From: Hormiphora californensis
Taxonomy: Eukaryota > Animalia > Ctenophora
Direction of reading: 5' to 3'
Assembly (NCBI GenBank): GCA_020137815.1
Contig: CM035350.1
Location: 5,766,001 to 5,830,000, forward strand
DNA: 64,000 bases
The position numbers were made by a program, and so were the translations under genes. Below are positions 42,001 to 51,000 of this stretch, in pieces (within the stretch, counting starts at the first letter, position 1; every line of letters starts with the position of its first letter). The notes under the pieces are model-generated. The model searched no databases. It saw only the letters and a program-made list of their open reading frames with translations, and was not told the DNA's origin.

Positions 42001-45000
42001 CGTGGACAATACAGTTATACACTAGCGACTGACACTTCTCAATCCCCCTAACTCAGCAGAGTCAGTAGGGTGTGAATAACATTTTAACAAACGTCACTAC
42101 AGAATATTTATATCAAATCTCTAACCATGTCTCTACTCTATCTCTCTCTGCAGTGCAAGCAGGACTGTCCGTGCAGCTACTACACCTGTGGAGGGACGGC
42201 CTGATTGAGTCTGGTGGAACAGAGAGCGGTCAGGAGGGAGTCCCACTGGTGTCGCTCATTGTGCAGTAGGAGGAGTTTAGCAGTCATGGTACGGAGGAGG
42301 AGGAGAGAGGTGTCTGAGATTCGGTCTCCATATCCACACAACCTACACATGGCAACGAAACAAAAGATGATGATGATGATGATGGCAAGTAGTAGTAGTA
42401 ACTGCATGTGATAGTAGTAGCTAGTTCTAATAAACTGATAGGTATTAAGCTTATACTTAATATATTGGCAAGGTAATTAGTCTAAAATGAGAGAACTGAT
42501 AGTGTATCATTAATACTTATCATTATCTAGAGTGAGATGAAGTCAAATTAGCTGTGAGACCGAATAATCACAGAACTAAAAAAGTAATATTATATAGTCA
42601 CACATCGTGTGATAGTTATAACTCAAATAAATTGCATGAAATTGCATGGGCACAATAAAAGTAGCGACTGCACTCATGTTCGGAAATACAGAACCAGAAT
42701 AGCAGCATGGATGCCGGGGGCCCGATCAGTACTTTAATATAAAGGCAGCTATTGAGAGATCCAATATTGATCTAAGAAGAGGAAGTGGAGAGATAAATTT
42801 AGAACTTTTATAGCGACGGAGAGCCTTGCCAAGAAATCCACTTCATGCAAACAGGAGAAGCAACAACAAAGGCTTTGTCTCAGATCTCTGAAATTAAATA
42901 AAATAGAGGAAAAAACAAATATCATCAATGGATCATGAGCTGAGCTGCTGATCCTCCATTCTTAGAAAGATTATATTTTCCAACAACTGCACAAGCTAAG
43001 ATGTATGTGACAATGGGTCCAGTATTACCTATTATGTACCCTTTGCCGTGATAATCTTCCTGTTCCACAGGAGGGAGGGAGATAGAGAGATAGAGTGGGA
43101 GAGAGAGAAGAGAGAGCACAAGAGCAGTTTCTACATGGAGGTCCGTTGTTGAAGCTAGGTAGAAAGCAACCATAGTTGCCTACTTGTGGTCACTGACCTT
43201 TAACGGTACAGAGTCTATAAAATCATCAGCATCCTTGAATTGGGCCTCTCTCTATCTCTATCTCTCTCGCTCTTCCTCTCTCTCCCCCTCTCTATCTCTT
43301 TCCTTCTGTCTTCTCTCTAACCACAACTACTATTTCTCTCCCAAACAAACAAACAAACATGAACATCGACAAAAACTATGGGAACAAAACTCACTTCATA
43401 CCAAAGGTAGTTATTTAGAGCATAACGGTATAATAGAGAGGAACAAGAGAGGCTGAGAGAGAGAGTGGTTAGAAAAAGAAAGAGAGCGGTTAGAAACAGA
43501 AAGAGATAATAAACCACCATACCTCATTCCATAGTTTCTTCATCTCGTCAGTCTTGGTATCGAGGGTATTGTAAAGGGGCTCCTCCAAGGTCAGGTAGCT
43601 CCTTAGCACTCGCCTCACACAGTCCAGTATAGGTGGGCTTCTTCTCATCTAGCTGCGCTTGCACGTTCTGCAGAAGGGAAGGGTTAGAGCTAGAGATGGG
43701 AGTAATGTGAGAGTCCTCCCTGGGGTAAGCTGATGAAAACTCAGCAAGAGCAGAGTTCCTAACATGAAAATAGCCTATAATTCTTCCTATATAAATTATT
43801 GTATTGCCATACTCTCTATTAGAACCAGTACCCTGGCTTTCGCAAAAATAGTCTGGCGATGTTCTACTCATCTGTACTTACATTGATAATGTCGATGATG
43901 GGGCTAAGGTTGATGAGGGATTTAACTTGGTTCTTGCTCAGCACATCCTTCAATCCACCCAGCCAGTCAATCATTGCCTGGATATCCGCCAGCAACTTAT
44001 CAATATTCTTCTGCTGGGCTCCATTCAGCTCGTTCTCCCTGTTCTTCAACCAAGTCTCAATGAACTCCCAGTTAATGTTCACATTAACAAGGATCATCTT
44101 CAGTTCCTTCATCTTGGGATCCTTCTCCCCGTACTTGTCCAGACAGGACTTACCCTGGGTCTGTACGTACTCGATCTCAGGACGCATCTCTGTGGGAAGG
44201 TTGATCATGTGGTTTAATGATCAGACTGACAAACATACAAACAAACACATATACGGACAGGTAAAACGAACAAAGAACAAGGATGATTCGTACCAGCGAC
44301 GGCTTGTTTGAACTCGCATAAGTTGGCGATTTGTTCCTTGAGTTTCGCTGGATCCTCACTAACAGGCTCCTGTTTCTGAATGTAATCCTTGCTCTCATCC
44401 TCCCATCGAACAACCTGAAATATTGGGGGATCGTTAGAAATGAGGTGTTAGGACAATTTTAACCTCTATCTCTCTCTCTAAAAATAGACTTTATCCCTCC
44501 CCCGAAAACCACCCTCCCGCGCCTGTCTGACCGTTAATTTGGTATGCAGGGGCTGTTACAGTGTTACACATATATTGACACAGGGAGGGATTCCAAATTT
44601 TTCTAATTCTCGTACTAATATTTATGTACAACATTAGGTAATAAGAGTGGTGTGAATGCAATATTGCACATGATCTATTATTAACTAACTAACCAAATGA
44701 CGAAGGACAAACTTCTTGTTGACGCCCGCGAACCGAGACTTCCATCTTGCTTCCCTCTCCCTATCCCTCTCCTCCTTTTTCCGGCGCATCTTGCTAGCTG
44801 AGCTGACCCTCCTTATCAGTGATCCCAGTCTGCTGCCGCCCCGTTTCAGCCGACTACGGCGATTAGCAACATCTGGATCTTCCTCGGCAGAAACGAGAAA
44901 ATTCAACGCAGAGTTCTCCTGGTAAAACCTGGTCCCGGAGAGAGTTCGTTTGAGTGCCCTCAAGTCCCGAGCTGGATCCAGATCAGATCTATTAGCGGTG

Positions 45001-48000: not shown

Positions 48001-51000
48001 CTCTCTCTTTCTTTCTATCTCTAAAGTTGGTCTACCCTGTCATAGTTCTACTAAACTACACCTCCCCACCAAATTCTCTTCTTTCTCACTCTCTCAACAG
48101 GACGCCTGAATTGTCAGTGAATAAAATATAACACAATAAACAATAATAAACACAATAAAGCCGAGACGAGATACAAAACCACATGCCTAACACAGAAAAA
48201 CACACAGGTATGGTCTGTCTCTCTCTCTCTCTCTCTCTCTCTCCCTGTGTTAGGGGGAGGGTTGTAGTTGGCTACATATGTTAGAGTCTGTAACCACACT
48301 GTTTCACATGTCTGTACCCTTCTCTCTCCCTCTATTTGCCAGTATAATTCTTCCCTGTGCGTGTCCTCTGAAGTTTACTTACCGGAAGCTTAGGAAAATA
48401 ACAGTAGATGACACACGAGTCACACAACATGACAGGCCGTGAAACGGAAGATAGGCGTTAGAAGAGTCAGTAGCGTTAAAACAGGCGGGAAAAGATAGAG
48501 AAATGATAGTCTAGTAGTCGGCAAGTTGCGTGGCCCAAAAGAGGACTCGAGTGTTACAAACGATGGGCTGGATAACATGAATCTACTCATAAAACATTTC
48601 AAAGGTAGACGGGCTGCAGAGAGGGAGAGATGGCGTGATACTGGTAGAGAAGAGAATTGGCAAAATACAACTCATTGCGAAGATTGACATATTCATGTGG
48701 CCACTATCCGTCAATATACAACCTGCACACACTCTCTCTCCCACTCTCTCTCTCCAACTCTTTCTCTCCATAGTGGCCCCACTGTGACAGGTCTGCTGCT
48801 ACACACATCATGCACACAACACTCGCATATATAATTTACTTGGTACTAGGCAGTATATGTGACATATGATGTAATTGCCGTATTGCCGCGATGCAGTGCT
48901 AGATGTGTGTTATCTGTGAATGTTTGCAGCGTTTATCGAACAGTAACAGGAGAGAGAAAGAGAGAGAGAAAGAGAGAAGGGGGTAACAGGAGAGGTCCTA
49001 TTTGGGGGTATTGGTTGGGCGTGAGAATGGACTTGTTTGCTGCTGATCTAACCGTGTAATGTCACACCAACTGCCGCACCCCGGCCTCGATTAACTGGCT
49101 AGGACAGTAGGGTGGTGTGGAGCTAGTACTCTGTACTTACACAAGTTGGAATGATAGATCAGAAAGATCAGATAGATCAGAAAGAGATCAGGTACCTGGT
49201 ACTACATAATTAGCCATATCATTGTGTGGCGGATGCACGTGTGCTCTTCATTTATGAAAGAGGCTTCAAGAACTAAAGCTTAGACTTGTGGACTACTACT
49301 AAACTCTTCTATAATTGACAAGGAACAATGCTAGCCCTAGCTAACCACTACAATCATTATCCCCAACACCCTATAATGCAGACACATTTAATGCTCTTAC
49401 CACATGCTCGAAAGCTCGGAATTTGTTGACTCCAATAAAGTTGAACTTGGGTTGCTTGGGTTCCTCCTCCTGTGACGTTTGCTTCCTGAAACTAGACGCA
49501 AACCTCCGTGCCCCCAGTTTCAGTTTGGTCCCAGATCTTTTGAGCATGCTACCGGATCGCCTGATGCTAGATGCCCTGGTCACCACGGGACCTCCTCCAC
49601 TTGATACAAACACATCGTCATCTTCCTCGTGATCCTGCTGTTGTTGCACGCTGGTGACAATGTTAGTGGTACCAGAGGCACTGCTCCTTTTCAAACTGTT
49701 GCTCTTAGAGACACTGTCTTTTCGCTTCAGACTGTTGTTCTTCGATGCAGTACTGTTATTACGTTTCAGACTACCACTGGAAGATAGTCGGTTATTGCTC
49801 ATTGTACTGAGGCGTCTTTTTGCCTCTGCAGTTGTCTCCGTGATTGAAGGGGAGGCAGGACGGACTGTGGGAGTGAGGGGGGAGAAGAATGTGGGGCTGA
49901 CCACCATGTGCACCACCGCACTACTCGTACTACTCATGGTACCCCCACTTGCAGACCGGCGACGTCGGGCCGGCATCATCAGGGGGTCTGGTTGCTGGGA
50001 TCGGCTGGGTGGTTCTGCTGACCTCGAGGGCCCCGGTCTGGTACTCATCAGGGGTTTGATAAGAGGACGTGCTCTACCAGAGGTGTCCTGTAGAAAGGTG
50101 GACGGTGGCGGGGACCGTTTTACCGATTGGACCTCTGTAACAACGGCTAACTGATCAGCCCTCGACTCAAAATAGGACTGCCTGAACTGGGGTTTGGGCA
50201 GGGGCTGTTTGTCCTTTGCCTTGGAGATAAACTGAGCAAAGGAGTTGTTTCTGACTAGTGTCCTTCTCAACTTCACCTCACCCTGCTCACTTTCATCACT
50301 ACTACTACTATCATGGTAGACAGCCGATCCAGTATGTAGAGAACCACGTCTCCGCTCATCCATCTTCCATTGCCTTTTCTCCACGTCTAGAGACCCCTTT
50401 CTCCTCTGATCCCTTTCCCCTCCTCCATCGTTCTCCAGGACAACCTTCTCGTAGGTTTTAGCAAGGGATATGATCCTTCTCGTGTTGGTGGTGCCCCAAC
50501 CAGCGGGGTGAGGGGGATGAGTTCTACCCACCATGACAGAAGCGTCACACAGAGCCGTAACTAGAACATACACAAGCGAAACTAAGTGAAGGAGCTACGT
50601 GTGCAGGATAAATTCTCAGCCGGGACTAATATATAAATGAGCTTTGGGAGCCAGTGTAACGAACCGCACACTTCGTTTTCAATGGGCTAGGTAATTGGGA
50701 GAGAGCGAAAGCGAGAGAGAGACTGGAGAGATAGGGATGGATAGAGACAGAGAGAGGGACAGAGAGAGGGACAGAGTAAGAGATAGAAAACTCAAAGCTC
50801 CCTAGCCTATTAGACGGCTTGTGGTGCACACACACAAAAGACAGATGCGACAGAATATTATGACGAAAGAATGCTGGTACTCACAAATCAGTAGAGATAG
50901 AGATAGAAAGAGAGAGAGATAGAGAGAAAGCACCATGTATGTGGTTACCATGGATACTGGCATGGTGGTTCCCCTCAATAGTGGTTATAGTTAATGATGT

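What the first reader, a model, noticed from the sequence alone, without database searches (positions are those of the whole stretch)
44294..50573. Array of three giant variable first exons sharing a junction motif and splicing onto one constant spectrin-rod exon
Seen: one 7.1-kb intron (44415-51548) holds three same-strand intronless ORFs of ~280, ~515 and ~380 codons that are otherwise unalignable. Each hits a phase-0 GT donor 2-9 codons before its stop, and the 13 residues before each donor align without gaps: [13 protein letters not shown]|gttagt, [13 protein letters not shown]|gtaaat, [13 protein letters not shown]|gtaaga. The next host exon (44294-44414, VVRWEDESK) starts in phase 0 in the middle of a spectrin helix A, normally supplied by ...LDDKLKE. 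Established: variable-first-exon/constant-exon arrays exist in clustered protocadherins, UGT1A and plectin, but the spectraplakin alternative starts I know of are mostly around the actin-binding domain. Inference: a promoter-choice cassette swaps the whole CH+plakin head for one of three disordered heads, the shared motif either completing the split repeat or forming a binding site. An ORF finder would call these three orphan genes.
Basis: partly seen in the sequence, partly recalled or inferred. Interest (0 to 1): 0.9.

Follow-up and report, generated by a model that had tools for sequence, protein, structure and literature searches.

The report
Three swappable heads for spectrin giant
A comb-jelly cytoskeletal linker gene holds three long protein-coding stretches inside one intron that likely act as alternative starts, each of which would swap the actin-binding front end for a floppy, positively charged head; the splice itself has not been seen in RNA.

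Summary
A ctenophore (Pleurobrachia or close) CH + spectrin-repeat gene has a 7.1-kb intron, confirmed by RNA contigs of two runs, holding three same-strand ORFs (378, 494-514, 276 codons). Each ends in F-x-G-x-N-x6-H-[LV] directly before a phase-0 GT. The motif triple is the best of 46.6 million; ORF B is under purifying selection; A and C have orthologues (89%, 48% identity) that keep the motif, and A's conservation collapses two codons after the GT. P. bachei annotates A as a stand-alone gene. Best reading (0.7): alternative 5' coding exons spliced to 44414, giving actin-domain-less isoforms with basic, disordered heads rich in PKA-type sites. Not shown: no junction from any head in either RNA run; C's donor is weak; same-strand nested genes are common in ctenophores. 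Corrections: the motif does not rebuild spectrin helix A, A and C share a second block, a plakin domain was not confirmed, and mid-rod first exons with unique heads are known (Drosophila dystrophin Dp186/Dp205, nesprin-1-alpha2). New is the tandem trio with a shared junction motif on one acceptor.

The parts
49401..50534 (-). Head A: 378-codon coding exon, likely alternative 5' exon; donor gtaaga at 49400
   Evidence: 89% identical to P. bachei model sb|3464728|; donor scores 9.2, best of 80 GT sites in the ORF
46096..47577 (-). Head B: 494 codons (514 from ATG 47637); donor gtaaat at 46095
   Evidence: RNA-library contig over 46876-47466 with 6 of 8 substitutions synonymous and an in-frame 6-nt insertion; donor 5.1, rank 4 of 92; no orthologue found
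44694..45521 (-). Head C: 276 codons; weak donor gttagt at 44693
   Evidence: 48% identical to P0020, first five residues and 10 of 13 motif residues kept; donor 1.4, rank 10 of 44
49401..49439 (-). Junction motif of A
46096..46134 (-). Junction motif of B
44694..44732 (-). Junction motif of C
49452..49550 (-). Basic block of A similar to C 44757-44855
44757..44855 (-). Basic block of C similar to A 49452-49550; its core [10 protein letters not shown] is invariant in P0020
44294..44414 (-). Constant host exon, phase-0 start three residues before the helix-A tryptophan of a spectrin repeat
   Evidence: (spliced contigs)
43882..44189 (-). Next host exon, rest of that repeat
51549..51688 (-). Upstream host exon that supplies the first half of helix A in the long isoform
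44415..51548 (-). 7,134-nt host intron holding A, B and C
   Evidence: joint in X1; equivalent path in X2
60595..63609 (-). Host exons of the calponin-homology actin-binding region (the part the short isoforms would lack)
   Evidence: Pfam CH E=7.8e-09; PDB CH domains; hand model

Best explanation
Three real protein-coding stretches sit in one intron of a ctenophore CH + spectrin-repeat gene, and each likely serves as an alternative 5' exon that would be spliced from its own GT onto the constant exon at 44414. Shown: the intron, the ORFs' coding status, the conserved motif and the matching phase. Inferred: transcription starts upstream of each head; the head's donor pairs with the 44414 acceptor because the heads further downstream offer no strong acceptor. 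The products would lack the CH actin-binding region and about 1,200 or more N-terminal residues, and carry a basic, disordered head of 276-514 residues on 1,300 or more residues of rod. The motif (a turn at G-x-N, then a short helix in low-confidence models) is not a spectrin helix A; it likely caps the half-open first repeat or forms a docking site, and it points to duplication of one ancestral 5' exon. The heads likely retarget the rod from actin to acidic surfaces (microtubules or membrane) under PKA-type phosphorylation; this last step is the weakest.
For: Coding: 6 of 8 substitutions synonymous in B against 24-30% expected, P 0.003-0.012; orthologues of A and C. Splice: all 3 motifs are followed by an in-frame GT, where 5-7% of codons start with GT, in the phase the acceptor needs. 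A vs P. bachei: 22 of 22 residues identical before the donor, then V-R (the gtaaga hexamer), then 1 of 7. Read-through tails of the five proteins are 9, 10, 3, 2 and 3 residues and share only V-[RNS], which is what donor hexamers encode. A's donor is at the host median (9.2 vs 9.0) and best of 80 GT sites. 5' rather than cassette: best open phase-0 acceptors score 1.6 (A) and 2.1 (C) against a host minimum of 5.4; C and P0020 begin with the same five residues. Heads: pI 11.1, 8.9, 11.1; 6 R[RK]x[ST] sites each vs 0.9-1.6 in shuffles; mean pLDDT 43 and 35; no Pfam family. Precedent in the superfamily (gene model P0009).
Against: No head-to-44414 joint in 2 of 2 RNA runs, both of which show the host path on an unbroken contig; contigs drop rare variants, so this is weak. 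C's donor is weak (1.4; rank 10 of 44) and B's is just under most host donors (5.1; host 0.7, then 5.5-11.6). Both orthologue records read through the GT to a stop: P0019 is a genome gene model, P0020 an ORF on a 1,771-nt Logan contig that may be DNA or RNA. Val after the motif could be kept for protein reasons. Nested genes, many parallel to the host, are common in ctenophores (2,357 in Hormiphora) and this host has a parallel nested kinase. No promoter or 5' end was mapped; C's conserved first residues overlap an AG that could be an acceptor, and the P. bachei model gives A an extra upstream exon whose donor is implausible here. PKA-site excess is not significant in P0020 (p 0.085).
Confidence: 0.7

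Rival explanations
1. A, B and C are independent single-exon nested genes, ancient tandem paralogues with a conserved C-terminal binding motif; the GT is simply a conserved Val codon.
For: Parallel nested genes are common in ctenophores and present in this host (kinase 26120-25202). P0019 and P0020 end a few residues after the motif. No junction seen. C's donor is weak. The motif does not resemble the helix it would replace.
Against: A's tail falls from 22 of 22 to 1 of 7 identities just after the donor hexamer and changes length between two species 89% alike; A's GT is the best donor of 80 and in the right phase; no AATAAA or ATTAAA within 600 nt (270 nt for C) after any stop (weak, ctenophore signals not tested).
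Confidence: 0.2
2. Variant of the best reading without new promoters: spliced-leader trans-splicing restarts the long host pre-mRNA in front of A, B or C (its share is counted inside the 0.7).
For: Leader on at least 56% of Hormiphora Iso-Seq reads; alternative trans-splicing makes a short C-terminal isoform in C. elegans sma-9 (abstract); AG dinucleotides lie 8-47 nt before the ATGs of A and B.
Against: Those AGs score -0.1 to 3.3 against a host minimum of 5.4; the only host-grade site (10.2 at 50722) is 188 nt upstream of A's ATG; none before C.
Confidence: 0.12
3. The ORFs are internal cassette exons included between 51549 and 44414, inserting a disordered hinge into the full-length rod.
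For: B has an open phase-0 AG scoring 7.2 at 47325; the host has other disordered intronic ORFs flanked by AG and GT (24200-23772, 10701-10333).
Against: The X1 contig runs straight across 47325 and 140 nt beyond; A and C have no phase-0 acceptor above 2.1; insertion would split a helix A.
Confidence: 0.07
4. Chance ORFs or transposon debris.
For: The window holds several mobile-element remnants.
Against: ORF lengths, motif statistics, synonymous bias and orthologues; no Pfam match.
Confidence: 0.01

Closest known systems
Drosophila dystrophin Dp186, Dp205, Dp117 and vertebrate Dp260/Dp140/Dp116/Dp71, G-utrophin (PMC2840664, PMC1790709; passages read)
   Same: Internal promoters in rod introns; first exons splice onto common downstream exons; isoforms lose the CH domains; fly isoforms have unique, conserved N-terminal domains.
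   Different: There the starts lie in different introns and give rods of different length; here three long heads lie in tandem in one intron, would share one acceptor and end in a shared motif. Dystrophin is reported absent from ctenophores (PMC10293626, passage), so the host is probably another family.
Spectraplakin N-terminal variants: Shot A-D types, MACF1/DST types 1-3 (10.1101/122010, passages); Branchiostoma floridae model P0009
   Same: Alternative starts swap lead sequences; Shot D-type lacks both CH and likely the plakin domain; P0009 has about 650 low-complexity residues in front of 11 spectrin repeats, EF hands and GAS2 and was the best named hit of a host exon (E 3.4e-4).
   Different: Known starts cluster near the actin-binding domain; no shared junction motif described in the passages seen; P0009 is an unverified gene model with one head.
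Nesprin-1-alpha2 and other SYNE short isoforms (PMC4924313, passages)
   Same: Internal promoters give N-truncated spectrin-repeat isoforms with a unique N-terminus.
   Different: The unique sequence is very short, not 276-514 residues; no array.
Clustered protocadherins, UGT1A, plectin first exons (recalled, not tested)
   Same: Tandem variable 5' exons on a constant 3' part.
   Different: There the variable exons are full-length homologous folded domains, or short; here they are disordered, alignable only near the junction, and lie inside an intron of a longer isoform.
Ctenophore nested intronic genes (PMC8527503, passages)
   Same: Same-strand ORFs inside a host intron.
   Different: Nested genes end in their own stop; these have a donor in the host's phase just before a non-conserved tail.

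Membership tests
Variable-first-exon / constant-exon array | Several tandem same-strand coding exons upstream of one constant exon | tested here: met
Variable-first-exon / constant-exon array | Each has a donor in the phase of the constant exon | tested here: met
   strong for A, moderate for B, weak for C
Variable-first-exon / constant-exon array | Transcripts join each variable exon to the constant exon | tested here: inconclusive
   no joint in 2 of 2 contig-only runs; A and C not covered, B covered only up to 780 nt from its donor
Variable-first-exon / constant-exon array | Each exon has its own promoter / 5' end | not testable with these tools
   contigs give no starts; only absence of good acceptors
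Variable-first-exon / constant-exon array | Variable exons are paralogues | tested here: inconclusive
   13-residue motif in all three, 33-residue block in A and C only; whole-ORF BLASTP E 0.13-1.9; no DNA repeat between them
Spectrin superfamily (host) | N-terminal CH domains followed by spectrin repeats | tested here: met
   Pfam CH and Spectrin, PDB, Atlas, own profile
Spectraplakin (host) | Plakin domain with SH3 after the CH domains | tested here: inconclusive
   exons 57099-56984 and 55604-55150 resemble it by recall only; no hit on the separate exons
Spectraplakin (host) | C-terminal EF hands and GAS2 domain | not testable with these tools
   the gene appears to run past 8895 and no genome is held
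Dystrophin or nesprin (host) | C-terminal WW-EF-ZZ, or KASH | not testable with these tools
   C-terminus not in window; weak SYNE1-type hit E 0.031
Spectrin repeat helix A (motif) | Helix-A residue pattern at -16 to -4 before the tryptophan | tested here: not met
   host 4.2; A -7.0, B -14.7, C -14.9; background -10.8 +/- 4.6; profile gain over the constant part alone 6.0 bits for host, 1.2, -0.1, 0.1 for A, B, C (9 reference repeats from one protein)

The most novel reading that the evidence does not exclude
A protocadherin-style array inside a ctenophore giant cytolinker: three anciently duplicated 5' exons, chosen by cell type (by promoter, or by spliced-leader restart of the host pre-mRNA), plug different phospho-regulated disordered heads onto one rod through a dedicated F-x-G-x-N-x6-H-[LV] cap that closes a half-helix spectrin repeat in a non-spectrin way; some ctenophore 'orphan' nested genes would then be hidden first exons of their hosts.
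Probability: 0.2. Interest if true: 0.75.

Novelty: new variant of a known kind. Interest (0 to 1): 0.48.

Why it matters
If the splice is real, a ctenophore makes at least four N-terminally different giant cytolinkers from one gene, three without the actin-binding domain, by a route paralleling dystrophin's internal promoters in a phylum reported to lack dystrophin. It would also show that a gene catalogued as stand-alone in P. bachei (sb|3464728|) is a first exon, which bears on counts of lineage-specific and nested genes in ctenophores. The shared motif is a small testable unit for how a spectrin repeat cut in mid-helix can be capped. The general device is known, so the surprise is moderate until junctions and cell-type use are shown.

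Tried and rejected
No genome is held, so paralogues and the host C-terminus could not be searched. Whole-ORF search with B: nothing at E<=10 among 7,997 scored candidates of 273-870 aa. Metagenome scans with C+P0020 and with the 43882-44187 exon: 597 and 510 pattern matches, none confirmed. Constant-exon searches returned only single-exon ORF calls from unnamed assemblies and two amphioxus spectraplakins, no full-length ctenophore isoform. Atlas: no usable hit for C. Lack of cover on A and C in X1 and X2 proves nothing. Complex prediction of C's last 33 residues with the two constant exons as separate chains: no answer, score 0.00, no evidence either way. AlphaFold models of B and C were too poor for a fold search, which was not run. 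Considered that C starts at the Kozak-like ATG near 45487 with an assembly frameshift: rejected, P0020 aligns from the ATG at 45521. No SxIP motif in any head; one RVxF-like match in B only. Two short leader motifs were not found in the window. Earlier-findings look-ups gave nothing on this locus and four unrelated notes. Nine paper searches listed no description of alternative starts in a ctenophore spectrin-family gene; the library lacks most subscription papers, and the Hormiphora supplements and Iso-Seq annotation could not be read and may hold the answer.
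Full report
Setting. The window carries a long minus-strand gene with calponin-homology exons at 63609-60595 (Pfam CH E 7.8e-09; PDB CH domains) followed by spectrin repeats down to at least 8895. 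My hand model has about 1,200 codons upstream and 1,300 downstream of the junction in question; several exon ends in it are approximate. The organism is a ctenophore: head A is 89% identical to a Pleurobrachia bachei protein. The host's subfamily is open. Its C-terminus is not in the window, no genome is held, and the putative plakin/SH3 exons gave no hit; the best named relatives of one exon are amphioxus spectraplakins at E 3-4e-4.

The observation. The three ORFs, GT sites and phases are as described. A spliced 1,092-nt contig from run X1 joins 51549 to 44414 and confirms five neighbouring introns; a contig from run X2, about 85-87% alike, takes the same path with 138 letters standing for the 140-nt upstream exon. 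So the 7.1-kb intron is real. The terminal 13-mers are the top-scoring of 46,572,768 triples from the three ORFs, and none of 1000 block shuffles gave an ORF as long as the shortest.

The ORFs are proteins. An X1 contig covers 597 nt of B with 8 substitutions, 6 synonymous (expected 24-30%, P 0.003-0.012), and an in-frame 6-nt insertion; the 7 listed substitutions in a host exon were all synonymous. That contig has no splice, so it may be pre-mRNA or DNA. A profile of the three tails found 2 proteins among 696 candidates: P0019, the P. bachei model sb|3464728|, orthologous to A and annotated as a separate gene (E 1.4e-20), and P0020, an ORF on a Logan contig, 48% identical to C over its length though only E 0.15 in that search. 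B found no relative.

Does the GT act as a donor? In A versus P0019 the last 22 residues are invariant, the next two (V-R, the gtaaga hexamer) are kept, and then 1 of 7 match and the tail length changes. P0020 keeps 10 of 13 motif residues and ends V-S-F against V-S. Against a matrix trained on 30 host donors (34 listed, 4 dropped for mis-set coordinates; host scores are self-trained and so inflated), A scores 9.2 (rank 1 of 80 GT sites in its ORF), B 5.1 (4 of 92), C 1.4 (10 of 44). This favours splicing, most clearly for A. Against it: no joint from a head was seen in either run, both orthologue records read through, and nested genes, often parallel, are common in ctenophores (PMC8527503, passages), including a kinase in another intron of this host.

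First exon or cassette? Host acceptors score 5.4 or more (33 hand-picked). The best open phase-0 acceptors are 1.6 in A and 2.1 in C; B has one at 7.2, but the RNA-library contig crosses it. C and P0020 start with the same five residues, though that stretch overlaps an AG. The 5' ends remain unmapped. Leader trans-splicing is widespread in the phylum and could cap or even generate these transcripts (precedent: PMC2904332, abstract), but host-grade acceptors before the ATGs are missing except 188 nt upstream of A.

The motif. The constant exon begins three residues before the helix-A tryptophan. The host's upstream exon supplies a normal helix-A half; the motifs do not (scores and bits in the membership table; reference set 9 repeats of one protein, 1 of 10 dropped for lacking the tryptophan). 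In low-confidence models of C and B a helix starts right after the motif's Asn, and in C a long helix ends right before its Phe. I read it as a turn plus short helix that caps the open repeat or docks a partner; this is inference. A and C share a further basic block, which suggests duplication of one ancestral exon; no DNA-level repeat survives.

The heads. All are low in predicted structure, two have pI 11.1, and each has six R[RK]x[ST] sites against 0.9-1.6 expected (p 0.002 or less); P0019 has 5 (p 0.022), P0020 3 (p 0.085). That R[RK]x[ST] is the PKA consensus, and that basic disordered segments bind microtubules or acidic membranes, is recalled knowledge, not tested.

Comparison. Internal promoters in rod introns with conserved coding first exons are established for vertebrate dystrophin and utrophin (PMC1790709, passages); fly Dp186, Dp205 and Dp117 lack the actin-binding domain and have unique N-terminal domains (PMC2840664, passages); Shot has four promoters and a type lacking both CH domains and likely the plakin domain (10.1101/122010, passages); nesprin-1-alpha2 has a short unique N-terminus (PMC4924313, passages). 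A review reports dystrophin absent from ctenophores (PMC10293626, passages); a spectraplakin evolution paper does not mention them (PMC9145010, term search). What differs here is three long heads in tandem on one acceptor with a shared junction motif. Nine searches listed no report of this locus.

Verdict. Observation confirmed; alternative 5' exons likely (0.7) but unshown; independent nested genes remain the main rival (0.2). New variant of a known kind; interest 0.48.

Noticed in passing
window 43587: The window has one base more than the X1 transcript, which breaks the frame of host exon 43667-43523; likely an assembly indel in a short run of one base. Other hand-modelled exons also show frame trouble.
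   Followed up: partly
window 24200-23772, 23214-22720, 10701-10333, 9615-9208 (-): More same-strand low-complexity ORFs in host introns, some with AG before and in-frame GT after (10333 donor scores 9.4); could be disordered cassette exons or parts of nested genes. None has the motif.
   Followed up: partly
window 26120-25202 (-): Intronless protein kinase gene nested parallel to the host in a 15-kb intron (Pfam Pkinase E 5e-43).
   Followed up: no
window 15508-16722 (+): Intronless rhodopsin-type GPCR nested antisense in a host intron.
   Followed up: no
window 26651-33172: Penelope-like ORF with GIY-YIG domain (30195-31712) beside or inside nested long inverted repeats (26878-27933 with 29206-30204; 26651-26878 with 32945-33172).
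   Followed up: no
window 62110-63420: 617-nt 99% inverted repeat with a 77-nt loop in a CH-region intron.
   Followed up: no
window 1967-6166 (+): Broken LINE-like element with a Cys-rich first ORF and endonuclease/RT-like fragments, by eye.
   Followed up: no
window 41098-41514: Tandem copies of the acceptor plus first codons of exon 41159-40992; X1 uses only the last copy.
   Followed up: partly
window 57500-57160 and 42340-42186 (-): Short intronic ORFs ending at in-frame GT with poor donor scores (-0.7, 1.5); possible further minor starts, probably chance.
   Followed up: partly
window 50936-50853 (-): Sequence 400 nt upstream of A matches the N-terminal extension of the P. bachei model, so it is conserved between species; likely promoter or 5' UTR rather than coding, its donor scores -8.
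   Followed up: partly
P0009: Amphioxus spectraplakin model with a long low-complexity head starting M-G directly on the spectrin rod, without CH or plakin: possibly the same device in a chordate.
   Followed up: partly
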